64,000 nucleotides of DNA from an uncultured Acidimicrobiaceae bacterium (GCA_963800065.1 CAWCZO010000007.1:176474-240473); one strand, 5' to 3'; counted from the stretch's first letter, positions 29,875 to 46,018 are shown. The notes: generated by a model not told the origin, from the sequence alone. Made by a program: numbers and translations.

Positions 29875-31155
29875 ATGGTCGACCAAATGACCGTGGTCCG
29901 GACCCGGCGGTTACGGGCGGGGGTCTCGGTGGCGCTGGCGACCGTGATCCTGTCGCTGCCGGCTGACAACGCGTCATCGGCACCCGTGGCGTCGGCCGGA
30001 GCTGTCCGTGTTCCTCACGGTGCCGTGCCGACGGACGCCACGAGCGTCGGCTCGGCGTACGAGTTCCTCGATCTCATGATGGACCGGTATGCCACCGGGT
30101 CGACGCCGCGGCTCGTCCAGAGCTTCACGGGAGGTCTTCTCGGACTGGAGAAGTTCACCGACTCCGAGACCTACGACGACGCCCTCATCATCGACGCCTT
30201 CCTGGCCGAGGGGACCCCGGACGGGCTGGCGCGGGCGGAGGCCGTGGGCGACGCCCTGCTCGAGGTGCAGGCCGATGATCCCGACCATGACGGCCGGATC
30301 CGCGAAGCCTACGCACCGACATCGCTGCTGGCCCCCCACGGGGTGGGGATCACGGACCGGACGAGCGACGTGGGCAACATGGCCTGGGTCGGTCAGTCCC
30401 TGGTCGAGCTCTACGCCGTCACCGGGACCCCGTCGTATCTGGCCGGCGCGGTGGCGATCGGGAAGTGGGTCCAATCACACGCCGCCGACACCCGGGGAGC
30501 CGGAGGCTACACGGGCGGGTACACGGCGCGGGGCGAGCGGATCAGGTGGAAGTCGACGGAACACAATATCGATCTCTACGTCCTGTTCACGAGCCTGGCC
30601 ACCGAGACGGGCAACGCCGCCTGGTCGGTGCGGGCGGCCCGGGCCCGGTACTTCGTCGAGTCGATGTGGGACCCGTCGGCGGGGACGTTCTATGTCGGGA
30701 CGACCGACAATGGTGTGACGCCGAACGACACCGAGCATCCCGAGGACGTCGACAGCTGGTCGTACCTGGCCCTCGGAGACCCGGCCTACTCGTCGTCGAT
30801 CGACTGGGACGTGACGAATCTGGCCGTCACGGCCGGAGGGTTCAGCGGGGTCAGCTTCTGTAGCGGCGACCGCAGCGGCGTGTGGTTCGAGGGGACCTCG
30901 CACCTGGCGGACGCCCTCGAGATGCGTGACGGCCCCGGCGACGCCGCTCGAGCCGATCAGTACCTGTCCGATGTCGCCGAGGCCCAGGCCGACGGTCCGG
31001 ACAGCGACGGCCTGGGCATCATGGCCGCGTCGAAGAACCGGCTGAGCGATTGTGACGGCGACTACTACTACGCATCCCTGCACACCGGTGCCACCGCCTG
31101 GTACATCCTGGCGGCGCAGCGCGTGAATCCCCTGTCGCTGTTCGCGTCGGCTTGA
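29875..31155 (+). CDS. Secreted protein, possibly (alpha/alpha)6-barrel glycosidase-like
   Basis: Signal-like N-terminus RRLRAGVSVALATVILSLPA, with helical-repeat-like composition (YDDALIIDAFL, NMAWVGQSLVELY, ATAWYILA). Function not recognised. Confidence 0.45.
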   Translation: MVDQMTVVRTRRLRAGVSVALATVILSLPADNASSAPVASAGAVRVPHGAVPTDATSVGSAYEFLDLMMDRYATGSTPRLVQSFTGGLLGLEKFTDSETYDDALIIDAFLAEGTPDGLARAEAVGDALLEVQADDPDHDGRIREAYAPTSLLAPHGVGITDRTSDVGNMAWVGQSLVELYAVTGTPSYLAGAVAIGKWVQSHAADTRGAGGYTGGYTARGERIRWKSTEHNIDLYVLFTSLATETGNAAWSVRAARARYFVESMWDPSAGTFYVGTTDNGVTPNDTEHPEDVDSWSYLALGDPAYSSSIDWDVTNLAVTAGGFSGVSFCSGDRSGVWFEGTSHLADALEMRDGPGDAARADQYLSDVAEAQADGPDSDGLGIMAASKNRLSDCDGDYYYASLHTGATAWYILAAQRVNPLSLFASA

Positions 31156-31207
31156 CCCGGGCGGGCGCCACCGCTGGGGACTTCAGCAGCCCGTCGACCG
31201 GGAGGCG

Positions 31208-31393
31208 GTGCACCGGCCTATCGTTAGTGCCATGGGGTGCCTCGTCGCCGTCTTTCTGTTGCTGGCCCTGATCTTCGTGGGGTTCGGATTCGCCGTCCAC
31301 CTTCTGTGGATCATCGCCGCCGTCTTCTTCGTTTTCTGGCTGGCCGGCTTCGCCTTCGGCCGGGGCCACCGCTGGGGTAGCGGGCGGCGCTAG
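31208..31393 (+). CDS. Small two-TM membrane protein
   Basis: 61 aa with two hydrophobic helices and a basic tail GRGHRWGSGRR. GGAGG lies just upstream of GTG 31208 but the spacing is short. The start could instead be ATG 31232. Confidence 0.4.
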   Translation: MHRPIVSAMGCLVAVFLLLALIFVGFGFAVHLLWIIAAVFFVFWLAGFAFGRGHRWGSGRR

Positions 31394-31436
31394 CGGCGAC
31401 GCCCCCGACAGGGGCCACCAAGGACCGCCTGCCGGG

Positions 31437-34400
31437 TCAGGCCTGGTCGAGCTGGTCCCGCAGAGCGGCCCACTGACGCCCGAGGGCCGGCAGGGCGAGT
31501 GCGCCGGCGGTGGCGTCGGCCTCGTCGGTGAGCTGAGCGGCCCGGGTCGTCTCGCCGCGCTCCAGCCACGTCTGGGCCCAGTCGAGTTGGCAACGCGCCA
31601 TCCAGACCGGGCTCATCAGCCCACGGCTGAAGGCGATCGCCTCGTCGAAATGCCGATCGGCGTCCGTCGGTCGGCCGAGCAGTACCTCCAGGTTGGCCAG
31701 CAACCGCGACGCCGGTCCGCAGCCGACACTGCCCGAGGTCATCTGTATGCCGTCATGGGGCCGGAGGATCTCGCACAGGTCGGAGGCGGCACGGCGATCA
31801 CCGATATAGGCGGCGACCTCGGACCACAGGGCCACCGCCAGGGGCCATTCGATGTCGTCGGGGATGTCACCGAAGCCGGCGTGACTCGCCCTGTGAAGCA
31901 GGATGGCGGCATCGTCGCGGTGATCGCTCTCGACCAGCGCGAAGGCCACGGCCGCCGCCGCCGCTGCTGAGGGTGGTCGGGATGCGGCATCGACCGTCAG
32001 GGCCGGGATGAGCTCCGGAAGCCGCTCCTGTTCGCGGCGAAGAGCGAGTTGAGAGATGGCTCCGACCTTGTCGGTCTGGATCGTTCCGGTCATTCGCCGC
32101 ACGTCGCACGCCTCGGCGGACAGGGTCTCGGCGTCGGCCAGCCGGCCGTCGATGACGGCGAGGGCGTGGCCGAGCACGAGGTGGGAACGCAGCGCAATCT
32201 GGTTCTGACCGCCGGCCGACGTCTCCGACAGGGTCATCACCTGGGACCGGAGCATTTCGCCGTCCCCCGCCGTGAACGTGCAGAAGGCGGCGTTGGTCTG
32301 CGTGGTGGCCACCCAAAGGGGGTCACCCAGTGTGAGAGCGGCGTCGAGCGCCCGGCCGAAGAGCGGACGGTCGAGCCTGAACTGTCGCGCCGACCAGATC
32401 GATCGCGGGCGGGCCACGAACTCGGCGGCCGACACCTCGATGAGGGCCTGTTGGTCACCCGACAGTCGGGCCTGTTCCCGGGCGTCGTCGAGGATCGGGC
32501 CGCGGCGCGTCGAGGCACCGAGGAAGATCGATTCGACGGCCAGGGCGCCGAGCAGACGCGCCCGACGGGCAGGGGACCCGGGCAACCCCAACGAATACTC
32601 CAGGAGCTCGATCTTCTCGGGATCGCTCTGTTGCTCCTGGTCGAACGACGTCCGCACGTTGACGAGGAGCGCCTCGATCATGGCGTCGTCGAGCTCTGCC
32701 TTCCGGGCCAGAACGACGGCCTCGCGCAGATGGGCCCCGGCGTCTCCCACCCCGGAGACCAATTCCGCCTTGGCCAGGAGGGTGAGGAGGTCGACGTCGT
32801 CCCTGGTGGTCTCCGTCTCCTTGTCGGAGGGGTTCGACCGGAGTCGACGACGGGCGCCCCGGATGAGAGTGCCGTCCGAAACGGCGGCCACGACGTCGGC
32901 CTGCCCCGGCTGAGCCGAGACGGTGGCGACGTGCCCGGGGGAGTCGACGGACACGAGGACCCCTTCGGCGAACTCGACCCCGCACCGGTAGACGGTGGCC
33001 CCGGATTCGACGTAGTAGGCGTGGCCGGCGTCGTGGGAGTGTTCGAGGATCATGCAGTCGTAGCGCCGGGCCAGCCGGGCCAGCTCGTCGAACGTCTCCA
33101 CATCGACCACCAGTGGGGCCTTGACCGCCGGACTGGCCGTCACGGCCACCAGGTCGGGACGGAAGGCGGCATGGATGCGACCGGTCTCGTCCATGCGCCG
33201 ACGGCGCATCCACCAGATGCCGGCGCCGAAGGCGGCGAGGAGCGAGAGGATCAGGCCGACGAGGGCCAGCCGCCTGGCCCCGGTCACGGCGACGGCGCGC
33301 CCGAGGATCGTCATCTTCGCCGGCACCCGCGTCGGGCGTTCGACCGACCCGGGGCTGTCCGGGGTGAGGGCCTTGTCAGCGGCGACGCTGCCGCCCTGCA
33401 CCACGTCGATCTCCTGTTCGTTCACCGGGAAGGTGAGAGAAGGAGCGAACATGTCGGCGACGGGGGCGCCGTCGAGCGTCCCACGGATGTGCACGGTCGG
33501 TGTCACCACGATGTTCGGGTCCCCGAGAGGCATCCCCGTCTCGGTGTCGAAGGCCTTTTCCACCACGGCGATCTGTGTCAGGTCGAGGGGGACGTCGACG
33601 GTGGCGGTCGGGCCGGAGAAGGCGACGGGAGCCACGGTGCCCAGCGGAGCGCTCCATCCGTCGGGACCCTCGACTACGGCCGTGGCCCCTATGGTGCCCG
33701 ACACAGACACCGGGGCCTCCGATGCACGGCGCGTGGTGAGGTCCAACGAATAGCGTGCCGTCACCTCGAGGGAGTGGACGAGGTGCAGGAACACAGGGTC
33801 GCCCGTCGTCACCAATCCCGTCGGGTAGGTAATGCCGGCGGGGGCGAGGGCGGCGTAGGAGAAGCTGACGTGCTGGTCGAAGGCCACGGAACTCTGGCTC
33901 CCCCGGGTGATGGGCCGCGTCCACGTCACCGCTGTCAGAGCACCGAACACAACCACCAGGGCCAAGCCCACGGCGATGGGCCACCATCCCACCCGGACGG
34001 TCTCGCGCCCCACCCGATCGGAGTCCGTCCCCGCCCGCACGGTTTCCGGGGTGGCCTGCCGGGGACCCGGATCGACGGCGCCGGGGAGGACGGCTCGGCC
34101 CGGGCGCCGGCGCCGGCGCGCCGTCTGGCCGATGCCCAGGGCGACGAGGAAGAAAGCGAGAAGGCCGAGGACGATGGGAGATCGCACCCAGCCGAGGACG
34201 GTGCCGCCGTCGGGGATGTGGAGCCACAGGCGTCCCCTGATAGCCGAGGCGGGCAGCGCCTGGGGATCCTTGAACGAGTTGTTGTCCCCTTTGAAGGTGA
34301 ACAAACCGTTGTGTTCGGCCACGATCCGGTGGAGCACGGTGATGTGCAGCAACGGGCTGTGGTACCCGACGATCTCGCCGACGTGGTAGCTGCCACTGGG

Positions 34401-34559
34401 TACGATGACGGCGAGGTCGCCGGAGTGGAACCTCGGCTCCATGCTCACCCCGTGCGTGGTGACCAACGCCACCTCGCCGGTGGCCATCGCCACGATGGCG
34501 GCGAGGCCGATCACGACGACGAGGGCGGCGCAGATGCTTCGCAGCCGTCGCCCCCTCAT
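31437..34559 (-). CDS. SipW-type (S26, ER/archaeal-type) signal peptidase I fused to a DUF5305-like ectodomain and a ~570-aa cytoplasmic helical-repeat (TPR-like) domain
   Basis: N-terminus has a TM, then GVSMEPRFHSGDLAVI (Ser box), VLHRIV (His box) and FKGDNN (GDN box). Further TM segments lie near aa 128-146, 193-214 and 441-461. The C-terminal tail resembles the C-terminal repeats of large LAL/SARP regulators. Confidence 0.8.
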   Translation of the reverse strand: MRGRRLRSICAALVVVIGLAAIVAMATGEVALVTTHGVSMEPRFHSGDLAVIVPSGSYHVGEIVGYHSPLLHITVLHRIVAEHNGLFTFKGDNNSFKDPQALPASAIRGRLWLHIPDGGTVLGWVRSPIVLGLLAFFLVALGIGQTARRRRRPGRAVLPGAVDPGPRQATPETVRAGTDSDRVGRETVRVGWWPIAVGLALVVVFGALTAVTWTRPITRGSQSSVAFDQHVSFSYAALAPAGITYPTGLVTTGDPVFLHLVHSLEVTARYSLDLTTRRASEAPVSVSGTIGATAVVEGPDGWSAPLGTVAPVAFSGPTATVDVPLDLTQIAVVEKAFDTETGMPLGDPNIVVTPTVHIRGTLDGAPVADMFAPSLTFPVNEQEIDVVQGGSVAADKALTPDSPGSVERPTRVPAKMTILGRAVAVTGARRLALVGLILSLLAAFGAGIWWMRRRRMDETGRIHAAFRPDLVAVTASPAVKAPLVVDVETFDELARLARRYDCMILEHSHDAGHAYYVESGATVYRCGVEFAEGVLVSVDSPGHVATVSAQPGQADVVAAVSDGTLIRGARRRLRSNPSDKETETTRDDVDLLTLLAKAELVSGVGDAGAHLREAVVLARKAELDDAMIEALLVNVRTSFDQEQQSDPEKIELLEYSLGLPGSPARRARLLGALAVESIFLGASTRRGPILDDAREQARLSGDQQALIEVSAAEFVARPRSIWSARQFRLDRPLFGRALDAALTLGDPLWVATTQTNAAFCTFTAGDGEMLRSQVMTLSETSAGGQNQIALRSHLVLGHALAVIDGRLADAETLSAEACDVRRMTGTIQTDKVGAISQLALRREQERLPELIPALTVDAASRPPSAAAAAAVAFALVESDHRDDAAILLHRASHAGFGDIPDDIEWPLAVALWSEVAAYIGDRRAASDLCEILRPHDGIQMTSGSVGCGPASRLLANLEVLLGRPTDADRHFDEAIAFSRGLMSPVWMARCQLDWAQTWLERGETTRAAQLTDEADATAGALALPALGRQWAALRDQLDQA

Positions 34560-34632
34560 CGTCCCACCTCCCGAGGTGGGGTGGTGCGGGCCGTCACTGC
34601 CCGCACCACCCCGGTTCGGATACTTCGCCTAG

Positions 34633-35118
34633 TTAACTTGTCTGGGCTACCACGATGTCGGTGGCCGAGATGCCGTAGACCTCGGAACCACCCACGGGGG
34701 TGTAGTCCGCGATCTGCTGACCGATGCCGCCAGTGGCACCGGCGTTGTTGCAGGTCCACGTGGTTGCTCCGCCGTCAGCCGGGCTGCTGGTGTCGGCGAC
34801 CGCGGTGCAGTAGGTGGTGGGCGTGAGGTCCGCATCCGTATCGTCGAGTGTGAATCCGACGGAAGCGTCGTATCCCGTGGTCGTGTTCTGCACCGTCGTG
34901 AACGTGACCGTGTCGATCTGGGACCCGGTGGCACTGTCCTCGTACGTGTAGTAGATGTTGTCCACGGTGGCGCCGGTGGTGTTCACGGTCCCGTAGCCGA
35001 TCCGGTTCACGGCAGCCTGGGAGCTGAACAGCAGGCTCTGGGTGAATGCCGCCGAGCCAGCGAGCACAAGTGCCCCGACTCCGATAGCGGCGATAAGCGT
35101 CCTCTTGTTGCGTCGCAC
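34633..35118 (-). CDS. Small secreted protein with SipW-dependent-type signal peptide (TasA/camelysin-like candidate)
   Basis: GTG 35118 with GAGGAG 6 nt upstream. N-terminus RRNKRTLIAAIGVGALVLAGSAAFTQS resembles the SipW-cognate signal pattern. The mature part is Thr/Gly-rich. Sits 73 nt upstream of the sipW-fusion gene. Confidence 0.65.
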   Translation of the reverse strand: MRRNKRTLIAAIGVGALVLAGSAAFTQSLLFSSQAAVNRIGYGTVNTTGATVDNIYYTYEDSATGSQIDTVTFTTVQNTTTGYDASVGFTLDDTDADLTPTTYCTAVADTSSPADGGATTWTCNNAGATGGIGQQIADYTPVGGSEVYGISATDIVVAQTS

Positions 35119-35196
35119 GACTACTCCTCTCGTCCGTGAGATGGCCCGGTGGGCCTGGTGCGGCGGAACCCCCCCACACCCTCCTTGTGCGCACTT

Positions 35197-35210
35197 CCTT
35201 GCGCGCAAGG
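35197..35210. promoter_or_regulatory. Perfect 14-bp palindrome CCTTGCGCGCAAGG, candidate operator
   Basis: Seen directly. Preceded by the half-site-like CCTTGTGCGCA. Lies 79-92 nt upstream of the tasA-like start in the 414-bp divergent intergenic region. Confidence 0.3.
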
Positions 35211-35532
35211 TCTCCAATCGGCAGGTGGGGCAAAAAGCTGAAGTGCCTGATCGACATCCCGACCGGCGGCCGCCCGCACGCCTGAAGGGGGGCAAGCGGC
35301 GGGAGGGCGGTGCTCAGGCGATCGGATGGCCGGACAACCTCCGCCCAACGATCGGTTGTCCTCTACACCTATTGGCGACGGTCACGATCAGTGGCGGGGA
35401 ACGGCGGTGCCCGGTGCCCGGCGCTCACCCCGGATCGGGGCCGGCGGCCGGCATGAGCGGCGAGGGTGACGGCGCCCTGGCTAGCATTCCTGCTGGGAGG
35501 CGGCTGGGGGGCCGCTCAGAGGGGCGGTCCCG

Positions 35533-38328
35533 ATGCTCAGGCGGCTTCGACGGTTCCAGTTGATGGCGGGCGCCCTGATCGCGCTGACGGGGTCGGTGTT
35601 GCTTGTCACGGTGCCCTCCGCCACCGTCGCCTCGGCCGGGACCGGGTGGTCGGGGCCCACGACCGTGGACGACTCTTCGCCCGTGGTCGTCGACGCCGTC
35701 TCCTGCCCCACCACCACTTTCTGCGCCGGGGTCAACAGCGCCCAGGACGAGGCGACCGTCTACAACGGATCGGACTGGTCGGCCCAGACGACCTACGAAG
35801 GGACGGGACCCTCCACCAGCGCTGTCTCGTGCGTCTCTTCGACCTTCTGCGTGGCCACCGACAGCAGCGGCAACGCCATCTTCTACAACGGACACTCCTG
35901 GTCGGTCGTGGCCGCCGGTTTCGACATGTCGTCGATCTCCTGCGTGTCGTCGTCGTTCTGCATGGGAGTCACCGAGGGGGCGAGCGCCGGCGACGCCGTT
36001 CTGTACAACGGGGCGACGTGGACACCGGCTGTGATCGATTCCGGTGTCGACCTCTGGTCGGTGTCGTGCCCCACAACCTCGTTCTGTGAGGCCTTCGACA
36101 ACAACGGAAATGCCTTCGCCTTCAACGGCGCCTCGTGGACCTCGCAGGGCAACGTCGACTCCAACCCCGCGGTAGGGATACCCTGGATCGAGGTGTCGTG
36201 CACCGTCACCGGGGGGACCCTCTGTGCCATGGTGGATGGGTGGGGCTCCGGCTTCCACTACAACGGCGTGACATGGACCGCCGACGGCGACCTGAACGCC
36301 TCCCATTACTTCACCTCGGTGTCGTGTGCCAGTGCCTCCTTCTGTGCCGCAGTGGACAGCGGCGGCGGGACGTGGATCTACACCGGAACGGGCTGGACGG
36401 GCTTCCCTCCCGAAGGGGGCCATCCGTATTTCAACTCGGTGTCGTGCCCCCAGGGCAGTTCCTTCTGCGTGGCCGTCGACAACGAGGGCACGTACTTCGT
36501 GACGACAAACGCCGAGACGTCCTGGTCTGGGGAGGGGTTGACCAGTGACAGCGCCCCCACCGGGATCCTGACCGTGTCGTGCGCCACGTCGGCCTTCTGT
36601 GTCACCGGCGACCCATTGGGCAACACCGCCACCTACAGCGGTGACAAATGGGGTTCTGCCGAGAGCATCGACGACAACGCCCTCAACTCCGTGTCGTGTC
36701 CGACGGCGACGTTCTGCGCGGCGGTCGATGATGCCGGTCAGGTCGTCACCTTTGACGGTTCGAGCTGGTCCGCGCCCGACAATATCGTCGGTACCAACAT
36801 GTTGTCGGTGTCCTGCGCCAGCGCCGATTCGTGCGTGGCCATCGACAATGCCGGAGACGCCCTGCTGTACAACGGATCGACGTGGACCGACAACTCCGAG
36901 GTCGATGGGAGTCAGCTGGTGGGTGTGTCGTGTGCACCGGGCACCGCCTTCTGTGCCGCCATCGACAACGTCGGGAATATCATCACCACCACCGACGGGG
37001 GAACGGGCAGCTGGGCGAGCTATTCGACCGGCGCCGGATCGCTGGCCTCGGTATCGTGTTCCACCGCCAGCTTCTGCGTGGTGGTGAGCGGTGAAGGCGA
37101 CGCGTTGACCACCGACAACGGTGGCAGCACGTGGTCGAGCCCCGACGACATCGACCCTGGTCAAGCGTTGAATTCGGTGTCGTGCGCCACGCAGAACTTC
37201 TGCACGGCCGTGGACGACGCCGGCAACGCCCTGCTCACCGACAACGGCGCCGGCTCCTGGTCCAGCGCCGACATCGACGGCGGCCAGCCCCTCGCCTCGG
37301 TGTCGTGCACCTCGCCCACCTTCTGCGTGGCCGTGGACAGCGACGGCAACGCCCTGCTCTACACCCCACCTTCCCCGCCGGGGCTGTACGTGAGCGTGGT
37401 GGCGCCCTACACCGGTCTCACGACCGGGAACACGGTCGTCACCATCACGGGGTCGGGCTTCACCACCCACGACGTGACGAACGTGTTCTTCGGCACCGGG
37501 ACCGCCAGCGACGTCGATGTGCTGGACAACACCACCATCACCGCCGACTCCCCTCCCGGGTCGGCCGGCACCGTGGACGTGACGGTGGCCACCACGACGG
37601 GCACCTCGGCGGTGAACTCGGCCGATCAGTTCACCTACACGGTGGCAACGGGCCAGACCCCGCAATCGTGCACCCCGAACTGCTCCCTGGCCCTCTCCAC
37701 CCCCCTGGCCGCCACCACCGTGCTGGCCTCGGGCACCTCGAGCGAGGAGGGGGCAGCCCTCTACCTGTCGGTGAACGCCGGGACCCTGCCGTGCGCCGGG
37801 GCCCACGACTACACGGCGGCGGTGTCGGACCTGTCCACCAACGCCTTCGCCCCCGATGCCACCGTCACCGTGACCGAGACGATCGGGGACATACCGAGCA
37901 CGAAGGGGGTGAAGGTGTGTTACGCGCCGCTAAGCGCATCGACCGGTACCTTCCTGTCCAAGTGTCACACCCACGTGGTCGCTCCCTGCCGCAAGTCCCT
38001 GAAGGAGCTCTACGGCCACGCCGGCGCGGTGGCCACCTTCGTGGTGAACGCCAACGATCCGCGCTTCTGGACGGGGATCAGCTCGCTCAAGGTGACCGGG
38101 TTCACCCCCACCCACGGCGCACCCGGCTCCATGGTGACCATTAAGGGGACCAACCTGGCCGGGGCCGTGGGCGTGAGCATCGGAGGGGCGTCGGCCCACA
38201 TCGCCAAGGCCACGACCAAGGAGCTCAAGGTGACCGTGCCCTCTTCGGCGCAAACCGGCGTCTTCACGGTCACGGCCGCATCCGGATCGGTGACCTCACC
38301 CACCGCCTTCACCGTCACCGGAGGGTGA
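35533..38328 (+). CDS. Secreted 14-repeat (Cys-pair, Asp-box-like) beta-propeller-type protein with two IPT/TIG domains
   Basis: Signal peptide MLRRLRRFQLMAGALIALTG..ASA. 14 repeats of 37-45 aa of the form SVSC-x4-6-FC-x-AVD-x2-GNA-x2-YNG-x2-W(S/T); the later ones are TDNGGSTWSS-like (Asp-box). IPT-like segments near aa 617-700 and 850-930. Confidence 0.8.
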   Translation: MLRRLRRFQLMAGALIALTGSVLLVTVPSATVASAGTGWSGPTTVDDSSPVVVDAVSCPTTTFCAGVNSAQDEATVYNGSDWSAQTTYEGTGPSTSAVSCVSSTFCVATDSSGNAIFYNGHSWSVVAAGFDMSSISCVSSSFCMGVTEGASAGDAVLYNGATWTPAVIDSGVDLWSVSCPTTSFCEAFDNNGNAFAFNGASWTSQGNVDSNPAVGIPWIEVSCTVTGGTLCAMVDGWGSGFHYNGVTWTADGDLNASHYFTSVSCASASFCAAVDSGGGTWIYTGTGWTGFPPEGGHPYFNSVSCPQGSSFCVAVDNEGTYFVTTNAETSWSGEGLTSDSAPTGILTVSCATSAFCVTGDPLGNTATYSGDKWGSAESIDDNALNSVSCPTATFCAAVDDAGQVVTFDGSSWSAPDNIVGTNMLSVSCASADSCVAIDNAGDALLYNGSTWTDNSEVDGSQLVGVSCAPGTAFCAAIDNVGNIITTTDGGTGSWASYSTGAGSLASVSCSTASFCVVVSGEGDALTTDNGGSTWSSPDDIDPGQALNSVSCATQNFCTAVDDAGNALLTDNGAGSWSSADIDGGQPLASVSCTSPTFCVAVDSDGNALLYTPPSPPGLYVSVVAPYTGLTTGNTVVTITGSGFTTHDVTNVFFGTGTASDVDVLDNTTITADSPPGSAGTVDVTVATTTGTSAVNSADQFTYTVATGQTPQSCTPNCSLALSTPLAATTVLASGTSSEEGAALYLSVNAGTLPCAGAHDYTAAVSDLSTNAFAPDATVTVTETIGDIPSTKGVKVCYAPLSASTGTFLSKCHTHVVAPCRKSLKELYGHAGAVATFVVNANDPRFWTGISSLKVTGFTPTHGAPGSMVTIKGTNLAGAVGVSIGGASAHIAKATTKELKVTVPSSAQTGVFTVTAASGSVTSPTAFTVTGG

Positions 38329-38590: not shown

Positions 38591-39814
38591 TCAGAGGGAG
38601 TCGTGGGCGTTGGGAATCGAGGTCGTGGTCCAGGCCCCTCCAAGGCACATCTCGTCTGATGACCCGTCACCCCAGGTCACGAAGTGGGGAGGGACCTTGC
38701 GCAAAATTGGCAACTTTTGAGCAAGGGTCGGATCATAGGTGCAGGTGATTTGGAGCTTGTCCCCTGTATGCACGGGGATGGGAGTCTTCAAGTTGTAGGC
38801 CTTTTGGTAATCGAAGTTGTAGTCGGGGACACTGAGAACCGTCCGGGCTTGCGGTGTCCCTGGGTTGAGGACCATCGAGAAGCTGCGGCCGAGCAGGTGC
38901 ATGTGGGCTTGCGCGCGAACGATGTAACCGCTTCTGCGGATAGGCCAGATACACGACGTCGTGTCACCCTCCGGCGGGTTCGAAGGATTGCGCCCGCAGA
39001 ACTGCTCGAGGAGGTTCACCGTCTCGACCGCGCTCGCACCGAAGCGCTGTCCCAGGTTGGCGAGCGATGCTGCCCGGTTGCAAAGCGGTCCGTTCACCCC
39101 GGTTGGACAAGGGATGTCCGGGGGAGCGAGCGCTATGAGGCCTCCAAGCGGCAAGAGTGGTGTCGAGGTCGGCACGGTGTCGAGGGTGAGCGAGTTCTGA
39201 ACCGGCTTGTCACCTACGAGCAGGTTGTAGTGGACCTGCATGATCACAAGACTCCCGGCAGGAAGCTCGATCCCCGTCCCCTTCGGCAGGTCGTCGGCGC
39301 CGTGACCCGGGGCCCACACGCTCAGCCAGTGAAGACCCAAGAAGTCAGCGAGCGACGCCCCGGGCAGCCCCGGTGCCCCGAAGCACGTCCAACCCCTGTT
39401 CCCGGTGTTGGCGTTGTCTTTGAGAGCAGTCGGCGCGAGGGATGGCGGGACCAAGGCCAGGATGGCGTGGTGGTCTTCGCGACTGCCGGGAATGAACTGG
39501 CTGGTGATGATGTAGGAGTCCCGGGTGACGTGAGGGTTGAGCAAGGTGCAGTGGTAGTCGTCGGTGCTTCCCACGTCCGCTTTGGGCGTGTAGGACGGAG
39601 ACACCAGCGTGACCGTGCTCACCTGCCGGGACGCGCGCGGAGGAGATGCTGAGGAGGCGGCCACGGCGGCAGTGAGCACCGCCGCCATGAGGACCAGAGC
39701 GAAGACCCCGGCCGTGACACCTCGCCGAGAAAGCCGCCGCCGAAATCGGGTCCTAGTGGTAGTCGAACCCTGGTCGGGTGGCTCGCGTTCGGACCGTTCG
39801 TCCAGATCCGTCAT
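38591..39814 (-). CDS. Copper type II ascorbate-dependent monooxygenase-like protein (PHM/DBH family), membrane-anchored or Tat-exported
   Basis: ATG 39814. N-terminus RFRRRLSRRGV plus a hydrophobic helix. CuH-like DDYHC..EDHHAIL..MQVHY. CuM-like AHMHLLGRSF..GDKLQITCTYD..SSDEMC. Confidence 0.8.
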   Translation of the reverse strand: MTDLDERSEREPPDQGSTTTRTRFRRRLSRRGVTAGVFALVLMAAVLTAAVAASSASPPRASRQVSTVTLVSPSYTPKADVGSTDDYHCTLLNPHVTRDSYIITSQFIPGSREDHHAILALVPPSLAPTALKDNANTGNRGWTCFGAPGLPGASLADFLGLHWLSVWAPGHGADDLPKGTGIELPAGSLVIMQVHYNLLVGDKPVQNSLTLDTVPTSTPLLPLGGLIALAPPDIPCPTGVNGPLCNRAASLANLGQRFGASAVETVNLLEQFCGRNPSNPPEGDTTSCIWPIRRSGYIVRAQAHMHLLGRSFSMVLNPGTPQARTVLSVPDYNFDYQKAYNLKTPIPVHTGDKLQITCTYDPTLAQKLPILRKVPPHFVTWGDGSSDEMCLGGAWTTTSIPNAHDSL

Positions 39815-40133
39815 TGTTCCCCCGTCCCTGTGCTTGGTCGTTGTCGGGGCTAGAACGCCGCAAATCGTCCCGGGACCTCTCGTTGTGCCCCAACAGGCTA
39901 ACCCGGCGAAGCTCGAACCGTTCGCTGGTCCCCGCAGAAACAGAACGGGCCCACGACAGCCAACGAAGCCGCTGGCTGATCCCCCAGGCGACAGCCACGT
40001 CGACATGGAGGCTGGACTCGGCGCGTGTGTCCATGTGGCCGCGGGACCGAGAGCTTGCTCCGGGCTCTACCGCGGGCACACCAGGCGCGACTGAGGGTCG
40101 GCTCCGCATTCGCCATCAGGCCTGCTGCAACTA

Positions 40134-42394: not shown

Positions 42395-45300
42395 ATGATG
42401 GGGGGAGCGGTGGAGTTCAAGATCCTCGGGCCGCTCGTCGTCCGCAGCGAAGCGGGCGAGGTGAAGGTGGCAGGCTTCCGGCGCCGAGCCCTTCTGGTGC
42501 GTCTGTTGACCGTCCCCAACCAGCTGGTCGCCGCCCCACGCCTGGCCGAGGACCTGTGGGAGGGCGAGCCGCCCACCAGCTGGGTGTCGACCCTTCAGAG
42601 CCACGTGTCGCTTCTGCGTCGGGTGCTTGGCCCGGGCCGGATCGAAGGCCGGGACGGTGGTTACTTGATCAACGCTGCAGATGACGAAATCGACAGCCGT
42701 CTGTTCGAGATCGAGAGCGGCCAGGGTCGCCATGCCCTCGAGGGGGGCGATCCCCGGAAAGCAGCCGGCCTCCTGCGTCAGGCACTGGATCGCTTCAACG
42801 GCCCAGCCCTGGTGGATGTGTCCGAAGCAGCCTGGGCCCTCTCCGAGGCATCCCGGCTTGAAGAGCTCCGCCTGAACACCCTCGAGCTGTGGCTCGACGC
42901 CCGTTTGGCCCTGGGCGAACACAACGAAGTGGTGGCCGCCGCCCAGGCAGCGGTGGCCGAGCATCAGCTCCGCGAGCGGTTGTGGGGTCAGCTGATCCTG
43001 GCCTTGTATCGCTCAGGCCGTCAGGCCGACGCTCTGCGCGCCTACCAGCGGCTCCGGACCACTTTGGGCGACGAACTCGGTATCGAGCCATCGGCTGAAT
43101 TGGTCGCTCTCGAACAGGCCGTGATCCTGCAACGGCCCGAAATGGACTGGAGAGAACGCACCGGTTCGTCTCCTCGCTCGCCATTCGCTGCGCAGACACC
43201 GAGTACGTTCGGCGAGGGCCCGGTGGTGCCGATGCCGGCACGGCTCTTGACGGGTCCGGAATACGGATTCGTCGGGCGAGCCGTCGGGGTGGTCGGCAGA
43301 GAGACCGAGCTTACCGAGATGACTGAGGCGACGAAACGCGTCTCAGGAGGTGGGGGACGGGAGATCCTGCTCATCTCGGGCGAGGCCGGTCTGGGTAAGA
43401 CCACCCTCCTGGCCGAGGCGGCACGAGCGGCGTTCGACAATGGAGTCTGTGTCTTGTTCGGACACTGCGAGGAGGACCTTGCCACTCCCTACCAACTCTT
43501 CGCCGAGGCCCTCGGACACTTCGTCACACATGCCACGGATGAACAATTGTCTGCCCACATAGCGGCTCACGGGTCGGAGCTGTCCCGGCTCGTTCCAGGA
43601 CTCGCCAACCGGATCCGGGACCTTCCGCCATCCAAGGCCACCGACGCCGACACCGAGCGCTACCTCCTTTTCGAGGCGATCGTCGGACTCTTCTCCATGC
43701 TCTCGGCCCAGCTGCCAGTCGTTCTCGTACTCGACGATCTGCAGTGGGCGGACAAGGGAAGCCTCCACCTTCTACGCCATCTGGTCGCGGCAGAGCAACA
43801 AACGCGAGTGCTCGTTCTCGGGGCTTACCGCGACACCGAACTATCTCGGACTCATCCCCTCCTCGAGACCCTCGGGGCGCTACGCCGACAACAAGGCGTC
43901 AGCCGGATCGAGCTGACAGGGCTGGATGACACCGGGGTGATTTCATTTATGGAGGCCGCCGCTGGTCAGACGCTTGACGCCGATGGCGTCGATCTCGCCC
44001 ATGCCGTTCACCGTGAAACCGACGGGAACCCGTTCTTCCTCAGTGAGGTGCTCCGCCATCTTGTCGAGACAGGGGCAATCTATCGGGACACAGCCGGACA
44101 GTGGGTAAGGGACGACAGCCTCGAATCACTGGGCCTACCTGCCGGCGTACGCGAAGTAATCGGTGCCAGGGTCGGGCGGCTCGGGGCGAGTTCCGAGCGG
44201 GTCTTGTCGTTTGCGGCGGTCATAGGCCGGGACTTCGACTTCGAAGTACTGGCCGAGGCCACCGAGACTCGGGAGGACGAGCTTCTCGAGGTGCTCGACG
44301 CTGCTCGATCGGCGGCCCTAGTGCGCGAAATGCGGGATGCTCCGGGGCATTACAGCTTCGCCCACGCACTGATTCAACACACGCTGTATGAGGACCTCGG
44401 TCCCACTCGCCAGGCAAGGGTGCATCGGAGGGTTGCCGAAGCGTTGGAGGATCTCAGTCAGGGACGACCTGGGCGGCGAGTCGGTGAGCTAGCGCGCCAT
44501 TGGTTCAAAGCAACTCAACCCAAGGATTTGGCCAAGGCCATCGAATATTCTCGGCAGGCGGCCGACGCCGCTCTCGCCGCGCTTGCCCCGGGCGAAGCCC
44601 TTCGCTATTACTCTCAGGCCCTCGACCTCTTCGCTGAGGCCGATGACTCCGAGCCTCTCCTGGACATCGACCTCCGCATCGGTCTCGGAACCGCCCAACG
44701 TCAGTCGGGAGACCCGGCTTACCGCGAGACCCTGCTCGAAGCGGCCGGGCGCGCCGCCCGTCTCGACGACACAGAACGGCTGATTGCCTCGGTTCTGGCC
44801 AATGACCGGGGATTCTTCAGCGCTCTCGGAGCCATCGACAGTGAAAAAGTCGCGATCTTGGAGACGACGCTCGATCGCCTCTCCGCTAGCCACCCGGCCC
44901 GGGCCCTTGTACTCGCCAACCTGAGCAAGGAGCTTGCTGTCGGGACCGCACTCGAACGTCGCCGTACTCTGGCTGAAGAGGCGGTCGCCCTCGCAGAGAT
45001 GTCGGGGAACGACGCCACGATCGTGCGGGTTCTGAACCATGTGGCCGTTCCACTCCTCGTGCCCCCTATGCTTGAGCAATCGCTGACCAGGTCGACCGAG
45101 GCCCTGGCGCGAGCAGAACGCCTGGGCGACCCAGCCCTCATGTTCTGGGCGGCAACCGTGCGTCGCATTGTTGCTGCTTGTGACCAAGACGTCGACGAAT
45201 TGGATCGATGTTTTGAGATCGCCGGGTCCCAGGCCGAACAACTGAACCAGCCGACGCTGAACTGGGTGCAAACCTTCGGGCGAGCCTCACGAGCCCTCGT

Positions 45301-46018
45301 GGCCGGGGACCCCGACGGAGCCGAACAGCTTGCAACTGAGGCCCTCCAGATCGGAACGAATGGCGGCGAGCCCGACGTCGCTACCGTATTCGGACCTCAG
45401 CTCATTGGTGTGCACTTTGAACGCGGGACCTTGGGAGACTTCATTGCCATCATCGAGCAGAACGTTGCGGAGTTCCCCGGGGTTCCCGCCTTCGTAGCAG
45501 CGCTGGCACTCGCTCACGTCGAAGCTGATGACCCCGATGCCGCTCGTCCGCTGTTGGAAGAGTTCGAATGCAAGGGATTCGAAATTCCGATTGACATCGT
45601 CTGGCTCACTGCGATGGCTCTCTATGCGGAAGCCGCCATCGAGTGCGGCGATCCGGCATTCGCTCGGCCGATGCTCGAACGCCTTGCTCCTTGGGAGGAC
45701 CGGTTGATATATGACGCCGGAACTTCCGCTGGTCCCGTGAGTCATTACCTCGGGGGCCTGGCCGCGGTCCTCGGCAGGAGCGACGAAGCAGAGAGGTTCT
45801 TCGAGCAGTCCTCCAACTTCTCCGAGAGGGTTGGCGCCAAGTGGTTCGCCGCCCGGACCGAACTCTCGTGGGGGAGGATGCTCGCCGAGCGCCGGGGTCC
45901 CGGCGACGCCGAGAATGCTCGGAACCTTCTCAACAAGGCGCACAGCGCCGCAGCCACTCACGGGTACCGCACCGTTGAGCGCCGCGCTTTGTCGACTCTT
46001 CGATCGCTGGACGCTTAA
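42395..46018 (+). CDS. AfsR/SARP-family regulator (OmpR-type wHTH, BTAD, P-loop NTPase and TPR-like repeats)
   Basis: VEFKILGPLVV..RRRALLVRLL (wHTH), BTAD segment ..LRAYQRLRTTLGDELGIEPSAEL.., Walker A GEAGLGKTT, Walker B VLVLDDLQWAD, and a long helical C-terminus. Alternative start GTG 42410. Confidence 0.85.
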   Translation: MMGGAVEFKILGPLVVRSEAGEVKVAGFRRRALLVRLLTVPNQLVAAPRLAEDLWEGEPPTSWVSTLQSHVSLLRRVLGPGRIEGRDGGYLINAADDEIDSRLFEIESGQGRHALEGGDPRKAAGLLRQALDRFNGPALVDVSEAAWALSEASRLEELRLNTLELWLDARLALGEHNEVVAAAQAAVAEHQLRERLWGQLILALYRSGRQADALRAYQRLRTTLGDELGIEPSAELVALEQAVILQRPEMDWRERTGSSPRSPFAAQTPSTFGEGPVVPMPARLLTGPEYGFVGRAVGVVGRETELTEMTEATKRVSGGGGREILLISGEAGLGKTTLLAEAARAAFDNGVCVLFGHCEEDLATPYQLFAEALGHFVTHATDEQLSAHIAAHGSELSRLVPGLANRIRDLPPSKATDADTERYLLFEAIVGLFSMLSAQLPVVLVLDDLQWADKGSLHLLRHLVAAEQQTRVLVLGAYRDTELSRTHPLLETLGALRRQQGVSRIELTGLDDTGVISFMEAAAGQTLDADGVDLAHAVHRETDGNPFFLSEVLRHLVETGAIYRDTAGQWVRDDSLESLGLPAGVREVIGARVGRLGASSERVLSFAAVIGRDFDFEVLAEATETREDELLEVLDAARSAALVREMRDAPGHYSFAHALIQHTLYEDLGPTRQARVHRRVAEALEDLSQGRPGRRVGELARHWFKATQPKDLAKAIEYSRQAADAALAALAPGEALRYYSQALDLFAEADDSEPLLDIDLRIGLGTAQRQSGDPAYRETLLEAAGRAARLDDTERLIASVLANDRGFFSALGAIDSEKVAILETTLDRLSASHPARALVLANLSKELAVGTALERRRTLAEEAVALAEMSGNDATIVRVLNHVAVPLLVPPMLEQSLTRSTEALARAERLGDPALMFWAATVRRIVAACDQDVDELDRCFEIAGSQAEQLNQPTLNWVQTFGRASRALVAGDPDGAEQLATEALQIGTNGGEPDVATVFGPQLIGVHFERGTLGDFIAIIEQNVAEFPGVPAFVAALALAHVEADDPDAARPLLEEFECKGFEIPIDIVWLTAMALYAEAAIECGDPAFARPMLERLAPWEDRLIYDAGTSAGPVSHYLGGLAAVLGRSDEAERFFEQSSNFSERVGAKWFAARTELSWGRMLAERRGPGDAENARNLLNKAHSAAATHGYRTVERRALSTLRSLDA

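What the first reader, a model, noticed from the sequence alone, without database searches (positions are those of the whole stretch)
31437..35118. SipW-type signal peptidase fused to a DUF5305-like ectodomain and a large cytoplasmic TPR-like module, co-oriented with a TasA-like substrate gene
Seen in sequence:
- One uninterrupted 1040-aa ORF starts with the S26 ER/archaeal-type boxes (SMEP, HRIV, GDNN).
- After a second TM it has an Arg-rich cytoplasmic loop.
- A ~230-aa segment bracketed by two more TM helices follows. As far as I recall, it looks like the DUF5305 proteins that are normally separate genes next to sipW.
- A ~570-aa helical-repeat tail ends like the C-terminus of the SARP regulator at 42395 (compare ..WMARCQLDWAQTWLERGETTRAAQL.. 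with ..WFAARTELSWGRMLAERRGPGDAENARNL..).
- 73 nt upstream on the same strand is a 161-aa gene whose N-terminus (RRNKRTLIAAIGVGALVLAGSAAFTQS) resembles SipW-dependent signal peptides.

Established knowledge: in Bacillus, tapA-sipW-tasA builds matrix fibres, and SipW there is only ~190 aa.

Inference: a dedicated secretion/fibre-assembly module whose peptidase is physically coupled to a cytoplasmic sensor or scaffold domain. I do not know this architecture as a described one.
Basis: partly seen in the sequence, partly recalled or inferred. Interest (0 to 1): 0.75.

Follow-up and report, generated by a model that had tools for sequence, protein, structure and literature searches.

The report
Dedicated signal peptidase with TPR tail
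A soil actinobacterium encodes a small secreted protein next to its own membrane-bound signal peptidase; the peptidase-plus-helper fusion is already described, but here it also carries a large cytoplasmic protein-binding domain borrowed from intracellular sensor proteins, so processing outside the cell may be linked to events inside it.

Summary
Window 31437..34559 (-) is one uninterrupted 1040-aa gene, conserved end to end in about 16 homologues.

It encodes:
- an ER/archaeal-type signal peptidase I that passes the TIGR02228 cutoff, with Ser39/His77/Asp92 invariant;
- a DUF5305 module: an outside beta-sandwich, two TM helices and a small cytoplasmic alpha/beta domain;
- a disordered linker;
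- a 463-aa TPR solenoid. It is homologous (E 5e-29) to the C-terminal sensor region of the window's own SARP-AAA_16 STAND regulator, but has no NTPase.

The 161-aa gene 73 nt upstream belongs to an unannotated family of 421 clusters. A member lies directly upstream of the peptidase gene in 53 related loci across several phyla. A structurally conserved hairpin separates the two genes.

The small protein's N-terminus (…AGSAAFT) is far more conserved than its mature part. No profile or structure search links it to TasA or to SipW-type signal models.

The peptidase-DUF5305 fusion is already described (2025-26 papers on tafi and AbpX). The TPR tail occurs only in a few uncultured Acidimicrobiaceae and is the new element.

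Verdict: a new variant of a known kind, of moderate interest.

The parts
34633..35118 (-). Gene for the 161-aa small secreted protein, the candidate substrate or subunit. It has a GTG start behind a GAGAGGAG Shine-Dalgarno sequence, an all-beta mature domain, two invariant Cys and a conserved C-terminal TDIVVA strand.
   Evidence: Family of 421 clusters at 50% identity. No Pfam or NCBIfam family.
35050..35118 (-). Signal peptide of the small protein (residues 1-23, VRRNKRTLIAAIGVGALVLAGSA). Cleavage is inferred at GSA|AFT. The segment is nearly invariant in close homologues.
   Evidence: Majority-residue conservation is 0.94 for residues 1-26 against 0.67 for the mature part in A3, and 0.58 against 0.40 in A4. 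The cleavage site is an inference from the -3/-1 rule and from TasA (…TWA|AFND, recalled).
34578..34612 (-). Intercistronic GC-rich hairpin: a perfect 14-bp stem, a 7-nt loop and no U-tract. It lies between the small gene and the peptidase gene, just before the GGGAGG Shine-Dalgarno sequence (34567-34572).
   Evidence: A hairpin sits at the same position in almost all of the 28 loci checked. Six of 14 pairs show compensatory changes in 9 loci.
31437..34559 (-). Whole 1040-aa peptidase-DUF5305-TPR gene, stop codon included.
34125..34559 (-). Residues 1-145: TM1, the extracytoplasmic ER/archaeal-type signal peptidase I domain (Ser39, His77, Asp92) and TM2.
   Evidence: TIGR02228 scores 65.3 bits against a cutoff of 51.85. 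Human SEC11A (7P2P) aligns with SMEP, HR and KGDNN in register, E 1.5e-6. The three residues are invariant.
33984..34124 (-). Residues 146-192: Arg-rich, disordered cytoplasmic loop.
   Evidence: Eleven Lys/Arg. pLDDT below 50 for residues 143-187.
32970..33983 (-). Residues 193-530: the DUF5305 module, made of TM3, an outside beta-sandwich (218-424), TM4 (425-454) and a cytoplasmic alpha/beta domain (458-527).
   Evidence: PF17231 matches 310-524 below its cutoff. Of the 64 sequences in A5, 36 match it, best E 1.1e-14. AF2 pLDDT is about 90-97. The layout matches the published description of DUF5305.
32832..32969 (-). Residues 531-576: disordered linker of variable length.
   Evidence: pLDDT below 50 for residues 532-576. 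Large length variation among homologues.
31440..32831 (-). Residues 577-1040: cytoplasmic TPR-type helical solenoid, homologous to the C-terminal sensor region of STAND NTPases (SARP-AAA_16 and cyclase-AAA_16 proteins). It has no NTPase domain.

Best explanation
This is a two-gene secretion and processing cassette.

Proposed steps:
1. The first gene makes a small pre-protein. It is probably exported through Sec; the broader family shows no consistent twin-arginine motif.
2. Its unusually conserved signal peptide is removed, probably at GSA|AFT, by the dedicated ER/archaeal-type Ser-His-Asp signal peptidase encoded just downstream.
3. The peptidase is fused to its own DUF5305 accessory module, the counterpart of TafG in archaeal tafi loci and of the non-catalytic subunits of the eukaryotic signal peptidase complex.
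4. The released ~135-aa all-beta protein, which has two invariant Cys (possibly a disulfide), most likely stays at the cell surface as a matrix or filament subunit. Its freed N-terminal stretch (AFT…) may act as a donor strand, as in the TasA, Taf and Abp systems.
5. A conserved hairpin between the genes probably ends or stabilises most transcripts after the subunit gene, so the cell makes much subunit and little enzyme.
6. In this small Acidimicrobiaceae clade the cytoplasmic end of the peptidase has gained a STAND-type TPR sensor domain on a flexible tether. The most likely role is a docking or regulatory platform. It could tie processing or assembly to a cytoplasmic partner or ligand, or report secretion status back to gene expression.

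What is shown: the gene structure, the domain identities, an intact catalytic triad, the predicted topology, the conserved gene pairing, the conserved hairpin and the tail's homology.

What is inferred: the substrate relationship, the cleavage site, filament formation and any regulatory role of the tail.
For: The fusion is real:
- Sixteen full-length homologues at 50-89% identity are conserved through every module.
- Four GTDB species representatives carry the continuous ORF.

The peptidase:
- TIGR02228 scores above its curated cutoff.
- SEC11A aligns with the catalytic motifs in register.
- Ser39, His77 and Asp92 are invariant.

DUF5305:
- The profile is covered almost end to end.
- Thirty-six relatives match PF17231.
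- The AF2 model shows a beta-sandwich, two TM helices and an alpha/beta domain at high confidence, as published for DUF5305.

Pairing with the small gene:
- A family member lies directly upstream on the same strand in 53 loci, with a median gap of 97 nt.
- These loci come from Acidimicrobiales, Solirubrobacterales, Gaiellales, Chloroflexia, Dehalococcoidia, Saccharibacteria, Terrabacter and a Micrarchaeia MAG.
- The rest of the neighbourhood varies.
- The signal region is much more conserved than the mature part.
- The window holds only one family member.

Precedent:
- TafD, an S26 peptidase, is needed to process TafA. TafG is a DUF5305 protein and is thought to assist it.
- SipW processes TasA and TapA.

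Hairpin: a perfect 14-bp stem, conserved in position, with 6 of 14 pairs showing compensatory changes.

Tail:
- E 5e-29 to the SARP-AAA_16 regulator's C-terminus.
- 43% identity to the C-terminal part of a cyclase-AAA_16 protein.
- A TPR superhelix at pLDDT 94-98.
- Foldseek matches include MalT domain III, TM-score 0.55.
Against: - The small protein matches no TasA, camelysin, DUF1102 or SipW-cognate signal model.
- Its model is only moderately confident (pLDDT 68.6). The best structural match is a generic beta-sandwich, CBM21 at E 0.1.
- These mostly two-gene loci show no tip, anchor or sortase genes, so filament formation rests on analogy alone.
- Cleavage has not been shown. The conserved N-terminus could instead be a permanent membrane anchor.
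- Most relatives, including close ones at about 50% identity, lack the tail and carry disordered tails instead. The tail is therefore dispensable for the core function.
- No conserved partner gene accompanies the tail.
- In one lineage the tail is out of frame.
Confidence: 0.6

Rival explanations
1. The long ORF is an artefact: two or three genes joined by an assembly or frameshift error, or a decaying pseudogene.
For: In two related assemblies (L006, L007/L014) the tail is in a different frame from the 596-aa peptidase-DUF5305 part. In L006 the tail is broken into three frames. The source is a long-read metagenome assembly.
Against: The continuous ORF recurs in about 16 proteins from different samples and sources (JGI, ENA, NCBI, Logan), with many invariant residues in every module. 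It also occurs in four GTDB species representatives. In L006 and L007 the homology runs straight across the frame change at …DDPP|GIRRRL…, next to short runs of C. That points to a single-base indel in a gene that was fused, not to two separate ancestral genes.
Confidence: 0.03
2. The small protein is not cleaved and released. It is a membrane-anchored partner or regulator of the peptidase complex, held by its conserved N-terminal helix, and the enzyme's real substrates are encoded elsewhere.
For: The N-terminal segment is conserved far beyond what an ordinary signal peptide needs. No SipW-type signal profile matches it. AF2 gives no confident structure for residues 1-43.
Against: The segment has the classic layout of a signal peptide: a basic n-region, a hydrophobic core of about 15 residues, then small residues at -3 and -1 (G-S-A). 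The AAF(T/N) motif resembles the TasA cleavage region (recalled). Extreme conservation of a signal peptide is typical of substrates with a dedicated peptidase. In the analogous taf system the neighbouring subunit is the proven substrate. The mature domain has two invariant Cys, which suggests an extracytoplasmic disulfide.
Confidence: 0.15
3. The TPR tail has no regulatory role. It is a neutral or recently acquired appendage that replaced the disordered cytoplasmic tails of its relatives, or a generic oligomerisation scaffold.
For: The tail is confined to a few Acidimicrobiaceae. Relatives carry unrelated low-complexity tails of varying length. One lineage has it frameshifted. No partner gene is conserved alongside it.
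Against: Within the clade the tail is conserved along its whole length down to about 50% identity. That implies purifying selection across species-level divergence.
Confidence: 0.3
4. The enzyme is the cell's general housekeeping signal peptidase, and its position next to the small gene is incidental.
For: The databases name it only 'signal peptidase I'. No bacterial-type LepB gene was looked for outside the window.
Against: The pairing with one small-protein family holds in 53 loci across several phyla while the flanking genes change. Bacterial housekeeping enzymes are normally the Ser-Lys LepB type; TIGR02227 scores only 13.3 bits here. Peptidases of this ER type with a proven substrate, SipW and TafD, are dedicated enzymes.
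Confidence: 0.07

Closest known systems
Archaeal tafi system: TafD (S26 signal peptidase), TafG (DUF5305) and the TafA/TafE pilins (Haloarcula hispanica, Natrinema; PMC11821415, PMC12337348)
   Same: An ER/archaeal-type peptidase is encoded next to small beta-rich secreted subunits, with a DUF5305 protein. TafD is required for processing TafA. The subunits assemble by strand donation.
   Different: Here the peptidase and DUF5305 form one polypeptide. The subunit is probably a Sec rather than a Tat substrate and shows no detectable sequence or fold match to TafA or TafE. The locus has two genes rather than seven. The cytoplasmic TPR domain has no counterpart.
Bacterial signal peptidase I-DUF5305 fusions (e.g. 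Anaerolinea thermophila E8MZY1; Actinoplanes and Tepidiforma proteins), noted in bioRxiv 10.64898/2026.01.04.697558 and PMC11821415
   Same: The same fusion. The published description of DUF5305 gives the same outside beta-sandwich, two TM helices and cytoplasmic alpha/beta domain.
   Different: Those papers mention the fusions only in passing. They describe neither a C-terminal TPR module nor the small-protein family found upstream here.
Bacillus subtilis tapA-sipW-tasA
   Same: A dedicated ER-type signal peptidase is co-transcribed with its substrate. The region around the cleavage site is similar (…GSAAFT here, …TWAAFND in TasA, recalled). SipW has been reported as bifunctional, with a second, regulatory role (Terra et al. 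2012; the title is cited, the details are recalled). That is a precedent for a regulatory C-terminus.
   Different: The SipW equivalog model fails (14.7 against 190 bits). The substrate is not a TasA or Peptidase_M73 homologue. No TapA-like gene is present.
Sensor domains of STAND NTPases: MalT domain III and the TPR domain of AfsR-type large SARPs (PMC10936776)
   Same: The tail is homologous in sequence to the C-terminal region of SARP-AAA_16 and cyclase-AAA_16 proteins. It folds as a TPR superhelix resembling MalT domain III.
   Different: There is no NTPase/NOD and no effector domain, so the STAND switch cannot operate within this protein. The domain is tethered to the membrane behind a peptidase.
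Eukaryotic signal peptidase complex (SEC11A/C with SPCS1-3; PDB 7P2P)
   Same: The catalytic domain aligns with SEC11A and has the same Ser-His-Asp motifs. Accessory parts lie on both sides of the membrane.
   Different: The accessory parts are not shown to be homologous to SPCS1-3. The eukaryotic complex is a general enzyme, not a dedicated one.

Membership tests
ER/archaeal-type signal peptidase I (MEROPS S26B; NCBIfam TIGR02228) | Profile score above the curated cutoff | tested here: met
   65.3 bits against a cutoff of 51.85, residues 9-141.
ER/archaeal-type signal peptidase I (MEROPS S26B; NCBIfam TIGR02228) | Ser-His(-Asp) catalytic residues instead of the bacterial Ser-Lys dyad | tested here: met
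   Ser39 (SMEP), His77 (HRIV) and Asp92 (GDNN) are invariant in 16 homologues and aligned with the same motifs of human SEC11A. The bacterial-type model TIGR02227 scores only 13.3 bits.
ER/archaeal-type signal peptidase I (MEROPS S26B; NCBIfam TIGR02228) | N-terminal membrane anchor with the catalytic domain outside the cytoplasm | tested here: met
   Hydropathy and the positive-inside rule. TM helix 3-26 in the AF2 model. This is a prediction only.
ER/archaeal-type signal peptidase I (MEROPS S26B; NCBIfam TIGR02228) | Cleaves signal peptides | not testable with these tools
   Needs biochemistry or genetics.
Bacillus SipW (NCBIfam equivalog NF046067) | Equivalog profile score above the cutoff | tested here: not met
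   14.7 bits against a cutoff of 190. The protein is of the same class but is not a SipW orthologue.
DUF5305 (Pfam PF17231), putative signal peptidase accessory module | Pfam score above the gathering cutoff | tested here: inconclusive
   This protein scores 20.3 bits against 29, but covers profile positions 11-215 of 217. Of the 64 sequences in A5, 36 match at E<=0.001, best 1.1e-14. Several full-length homologues carry precomputed PF17231 hits.
DUF5305 (Pfam PF17231), putative signal peptidase accessory module | [quoted passage not shown] | tested here: met
   AF2 model: strands 218-424, TM helices 193-214 and 425-454, alpha/beta domain 458-527, pLDDT about 90-97. This matches the description in bioRxiv 10.64898/2026.01.04.697558.
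TasA superfamily subunit (TasA/camelysin, AbpA, AbpX, Taf pilins), for the 161-aa protein | Sequence-profile match to a family member | tested here: not met
   No credible Pfam or NCBIfam family for any of 58 members (only scattered matches, at most 3 members per family, best E about 0.001). No TasA, Abp or Taf chain among the PDB profile hits.
TasA superfamily subunit (TasA/camelysin, AbpA, AbpX, Taf pilins), for the 161-aa protein | Structural match to a solved subunit | tested here: not met
   The best Foldseek hit against the PDB is CBM21 at E 0.1, and no TasA-superfamily entry is among the 50 best matches shown. The model is of moderate quality (pLDDT 68.6), so this is a weak negative.
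TasA superfamily subunit (TasA/camelysin, AbpA, AbpX, Taf pilins), for the 161-aa protein | SipW-cognate or alternate-type signal peptide model (TIGR04088/TIGR04089; accessions recalled) | tested here: not met
   No hit at E<=10 for this protein. Neither model is among the 25 most-matched families listed for the 58 relatives at E<=1. HMMER's filters can drop such short models. By eye the motif …AGSAAFT resembles …TWAAFND of TasA.
TasA superfamily subunit (TasA/camelysin, AbpA, AbpX, Taf pilins), for the 161-aa protein | Encoded next to a dedicated ER-type signal peptidase | tested here: met
   53 loci, same strand, median gap 97 nt.
TasA superfamily subunit (TasA/camelysin, AbpA, AbpX, Taf pilins), for the 161-aa protein | Polymerises by donor-strand complementation | not testable with these tools
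   No multimer prediction was available. It needs AF-multimer/AF3 or cryo-EM.
STAND NTPase (SARP- or cyclase-AAA_16-TPR proteins), for the tail | C-terminal TPR sensor domain | tested here: met
   441 residues aligned at 30% identity, E 5e-29, to the window's SARP-BTAD-AAA_16 protein. 43% identity to P0249, which follows a Guanylate_cyc+AAA_16 ORF. TPR superhelix with a MalT domain III match.
STAND NTPase (SARP- or cyclase-AAA_16-TPR proteins), for the tail | NOD/NTPase domain and an N-terminal effector domain | tested here: not met
   No AAA_16, NB-ARC or similar hit anywhere in the 1040 aa. The protein only carries a STAND-type sensor domain and is not a STAND protein.

The most novel reading that the evidence does not exclude
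The TPR tail turns a dedicated signal peptidase into a two-way signalling device. A STAND-type sensor domain is tethered to the membrane without its NTPase. It would bind a cytoplasmic ligand or a soluble STAND regulator, such as a SARP- or cyclase-AAA_16 paralogue. Subunit processing and assembly outside the cell would then be gated from inside, or secretion load would be reported to transcription or cNMP signalling. In addition, the paired small-protein family would be an unrecognised, widespread surface-filament or matrix system of soil Actinomycetota, Chloroflexota and Saccharibacteria.
Probability: 0.15. Interest if true: 0.75.

Novelty: new variant of a known kind. Interest (0 to 1): 0.45.

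Why it matters
Dedicated ER-type signal peptidases with DUF5305 partners have recently been recognised as the processing enzymes of TasA-, Taf- and Abp-type surface filaments in archaea and Firmicutes. This locus adds three things.

1. **A wider, simpler cassette.** The same logic exists as a minimal two-gene unit, with a previously unannotated subunit family of 421 clusters, across uncultured soil Actinomycetota and other phyla. One cultured species, Terrabacter terrigena, also has it and could serve for experiments.

2. **A cytoplasmic sensor-type domain.** In a few Acidimicrobiaceae the enzyme has captured a domain of the kind that STAND regulators use as a sensor. If that domain is functional, it would be a rare case of an extracytoplasmic processing enzyme wired directly to cytoplasmic signalling. 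It would also extend the old observation that SipW has a second, regulatory role.

3. **A likely expression control.** The conserved intercistronic hairpin suggests how the cell sets the ratio of subunit to enzyme.

Tried and rejected
- **Profile searches on the small protein.** Pfam and NCBIfam found no credible family for it or for 57 relatives, even at permissive E-values.
- **Structure search on the small protein.** Foldseek gave only generic beta-sandwich or Ig-like matches. A PDB profile search gave marginal hits to antibody VH framework 3 (E 7e-4). I treat these as beta-sandwich pattern similarity, because the disulfide topology differs.
- **PDB sequence searches with the tail.** They gave nothing or only weak OGT TPR hits. 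Only the structure search was informative.
- **Promoter and terminator scans of 31000-35700.** Nothing was found. The hairpin lacks a U-tract, so the scan missed it.
- **A 'natural split' of the tail.** The 596-aa and 451-aa ORFs in L006 and L007 looked like one. Homology continues across the frame change, so I rejected it in favour of a single-base frameshift.
- **Origin of the fusion by a local deletion.** I tested whether it arose next to a cyclase-STAND gene, using the nearby cNMP-binding genes. They share only 35% identity and are not evidently orthologous, so I dropped the idea.
- **The window's SARP regulator as a dedicated partner.** It is not linked to the cassette in the other tail-bearing loci examined (L002-L004).
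- **The divergent 931-aa TIG-repeat gene as part of the system.** It is present only in the closest relatives and absent from L003 and L004.
- **Terra et al. 2012.** The paper could not be opened, so details of SipW's second function are recalled, not read.

Full report
**1. The observation**

The window carries an uninterrupted 1040-aa ORF at 31437..34559 on the minus strand. A 161-aa ORF lies at 34633..35118 on the same strand, 73 nt upstream. An independent gene caller made both calls identically on the source contig. That contig is a 1.41-Mb metagenome assembly, ENA ERZ25039540 contig_5406. Related MAGs are named Acidimicrobiaceae or Acidimicrobiales.

Both genes have plausible Shine-Dalgarno sequences: GAGAGGAG before the GTG and GGGAGG before the ATG. 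G+C is uniform at about 0.68-0.70 across the region.

**2. The ORF is a real fused gene**

A database search returned the identical protein and about 15 further full-length homologues of 1025-1114 aa, at 50-89% identity, from several sources. In their alignment every module is conserved, including the last 460 residues. Only two segments vary in length: the loop after TM2 and a linker near residues 530-590.

A scan of GTDB species representatives found the full 1-1040 match in five Acidimicrobiaceae or Acidimicrobiales MAGs. Four of them have a continuous ORF.

In one lineage (L006, L007 = L014) the tail is out of frame with a 596-aa N-terminal part. Homology to the fused genes continues across the frame change (…DDPP | GIRRRLRPS…), next to short runs of C. 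In L006 the tail is broken twice more. I read this as a frameshift, either real or a sequencing error, in an ancestrally fused gene. It is not a natural two-gene form.

**3. The modules**

| Residues | Module | Main evidence |
|---|---|---|
| 1-145 | TM1, signal peptidase domain, TM2 | |
| 146-192 | Arg-rich disordered cytoplasmic loop | |
| 193-530 | DUF5305 module | |
| 531-576 | Disordered linker | |
| 577-1039 | TPR-type helical solenoid | |

(a) *Peptidase.* Residues 9-141 pass the curated cutoff of NCBIfam TIGR02228, the archaeal/ER-type signal peptidase I (65.3 against 51.85 bits). The Bacillus SipW equivalog scores 14.7 against 190 bits, and the bacterial-type model 13.3 bits. Human SEC11A (7P2P) aligns at E 1.5e-6 with SMEP, HR and KGDNN in register. 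Ser39, His77 and Asp92 are invariant. The enzyme therefore belongs to the Ser-His-Asp class and looks catalytically intact.

(b) *Topology.* Hydrophobic segments lie at 9-27, 125-143, 195-213 and 431-449. Lys/Arg residues cluster at the N-terminus, in the 146-192 loop (11 of them) and after TM4. This places the peptidase domain and the 214-430 segment outside, and the loop and everything after residue 450 inside.

(c) *DUF5305.* Pfam DUF5305 matches residues 310-524 over positions 11-215 of 217, but below its cutoff. Thirty-six of the aligned relatives match it, best E 1.1e-14.

(d) *Structure model.* A full-length AlphaFold2 model from a 64-sequence alignment has a mean pLDDT of 85.8. It shows:
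- four TM helices;
- a beta-sandwich at 218-424;
- a small alpha/beta domain at 458-527;
- disordered stretches at 143-187 and 532-576;
- an all-helical solenoid at 577-1039, with pLDDT 94-98.

**4. The tail**

It is in fact a 441-residue alignment at 30% identity, E 5e-29. It joins residues ~588-1020 of the peptidase to residues 757-1186 of that protein. The SARP protein has Trans_reg_C, BTAD and AAA_16 domains, which makes it an AfsR-type STAND regulator.

A search with the tail alone found the same domain in two further settings:
- at the C-terminus of other SARP proteins;
- at 43% identity, in an ORF that directly follows a Guanylate_cyc+AAA_16 ORF.

Foldseek places the model among TPR superhelices: APC5, LGN, OGT, and MalT domain III with a TM-score of 0.55 on the target. 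In AfsR the corresponding region is called a tentative TPR sensor domain. Together with the NOD it inhibits the effector until ATP binds (PMC10936776).

The tail has no NTPase domain. It is therefore a STAND-type sensor domain used outside the STAND context.

It is present only in loci L001-L004, L006/L007, L009-L012 and L014. All other relatives end soon after the DUF5305 alpha/beta domain or carry long Pro/Ala/Glu-rich tails. These include Acidimicrobiales proteins about 50% identical in the shared part.

**5. The upstream gene**

Its close homologues are all unnamed. They share an almost invariant N-terminus, MRRNKRTLIAAIGVGALVLAGSAAFT, while the rest is 40-50% identical. Majority-residue conservation is 0.94 for the N-terminus against 0.67 for the mature part.

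An exhaustive profile search found 421 cluster representatives of 125-170 aa. They share:
- the consensus M-R-x-x-K-R…AAGG(A/S)AFT(A/D/N)S;
- two invariant Cys;
- a C-terminal beta-strand.

No Pfam or NCBIfam model credibly matches any of 58 members. That includes the TasA/camelysin and SipW-cognate signal models.

The AF2 model has a pLDDT of 68.6. It is an eight-stranded beta-sandwich with an unstructured N-terminal ~43 residues. Its best PDB match is CBM21 at E 0.1, and no TasA-superfamily subunit is among the 50 best matches shown. 'TasA-like' is therefore not supported by sequence or fold.

The link to the peptidase is supported. An HMM of the family hits an ORF immediately upstream of the peptidase gene, on the same strand, in 53 related loci with a median gap of 97 nt. 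The loci come from Acidimicrobiales, Solirubrobacterales, Gaiellales, Chloroflexia, Dehalococcoidia, Saccharibacteria, Terrabacter terrigena and a Micrarchaeia MAG. The surrounding genes differ from locus to locus. The window holds only this one family member.

**6. The intercistronic hairpin**

Between the two genes lies a perfect 14-bp GC-rich hairpin at 34578-34612 on the minus strand. It has no U-tract and sits just before the peptidase Shine-Dalgarno sequence.

A strong hairpin occupies the same position in almost all related loci, with different sequences. In nine alignable loci, 6 of 14 pairs show compensatory double changes.

I infer a partial terminator or a 3'-end stabiliser that gives much more subunit than enzyme, as in many pilin operons. 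This is not shown.

**7. Mechanism**

The best-supported reading is a dedicated processing cassette of the TasA/Taf/Abp kind.
- The pre-protein is exported. I infer Sec, because the wider family has no consistent twin-arginine motif.
- The ER-type peptidase removes the conserved signal. I infer cleavage at GSA|AFT, by the -3/-1 rule and by analogy with TasA …TWA|AFND (recalled).
- The DUF5305 module acts as a built-in accessory subunit.
- The released beta-sandwich protein stays at the surface, possibly polymerising through its freed N-terminal strand.

Precedents:
- TafD is required for TafA processing, and TafG (DUF5305) is proposed to assist it (PMC11821415, PMC12337348).
- SipW processes TasA and TapA (PMC4551309).

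The role of the tail is the weakest step. Its conservation within the clade argues for a function. Its absence from close relatives shows it is an add-on. I favour a docking or regulatory role for a cytoplasmic partner or ligand. SipW's reported second, regulatory function is a loose precedent (Terra et al. 2012; details recalled).

**8. Comparison with known systems and novelty**

The peptidase-DUF5305 fusion has already been noted for Actinoplanes, Tepidiforma and Anaerolinea proteins.

My literature searches found no description of three things:
- a TPR or STAND-sensor tail on such an enzyme;
- the small-protein family;
- the conserved hairpin.

The literature library covers only part of what is published.

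I class this as a new variant of a known kind. Interest is moderate, for four reasons:
- the core is an expected system;
- the new domain is confined to a handful of uncultured genomes;
- its function is unknown;
- the widespread unannotated two-gene cassette and the sensor-domain capture are both worth an experiment.

Noticed in passing
window 34578-34612 (- strand); same position in L001-L055: A perfect 14-bp GC-rich hairpin without a U-tract lies between the small gene and the peptidase gene. It is conserved in position and structure but not in sequence across related loci, with 6 of 14 pairs showing compensatory changes.
   Followed up: yes
window 31232-31393 (+): A 53-aa, extremely hydrophobic ORF (probably two TM helices, ending in an Arg-rich tail) converges on the 3' end of the peptidase gene. 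It is 75-85% identical in L002, L006 and L007, more conserved than the peptidase itself. It is absent from the gene calls of L003 and L004.
   Followed up: partly
window 35533-38328 (+): A divergently transcribed 931-aa secreted protein carries about a dozen ~45-aa Cys-containing repeats (SVSC…FC.AVD..G….Y.G..W; orthologues give a faint Tectonin hit) and two IPT/TIG domains. It is present next to the cassette only in the closest relatives.
   Followed up: partly
window 42395-46018 (+): A 1207-aa AfsR-type regulator (Trans_reg_C, BTAD, AAA_16 and a TPR region). Its last ~430 residues are homologous to the peptidase tail. It is not linked to the cassette in the other tail-bearing loci examined (L002-L004).
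   Followed up: partly
L006 9700-11100; L007 6880-7080 (= L014, OY970155.1): In this Acidimicrobiaceae lineage the peptidase gene is frameshifted at the linker, at the sequence gacgacccacccgcg. In L006 it is shifted twice more within the tail. This is either real decay of the tail or homopolymer errors of long-read assembly.
   Followed up: partly
L008 5200-8539: A Guanylate_cyc+AAA_16 ORF of 596 aa is followed 10 nt later by a 512-aa ORF, the closest non-peptidase relative of the tail (43% identity). It is probably one split or frameshifted cyclase-STAND gene and a candidate for the donor lineage of the tail.
   Followed up: partly
window 38591-40006 (-) and L002, L006, L007 neighbours: Proteins with copper type II ascorbate-dependent monooxygenase C-terminal domains (Cu2_monoox_C) recur near the cassette in the closest relatives. 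This domain is unusual in bacteria.
   Followed up: no
small-protein family (alignment A4), profile positions 72-121: A PDB profile search gives marginal hits (E 7e-4 to 0.05) to antibody VH and nanobody framework 3 (…[29 protein letters not shown]). This is probably a shared beta-sandwich strand pattern rather than homology.
   Followed up: no
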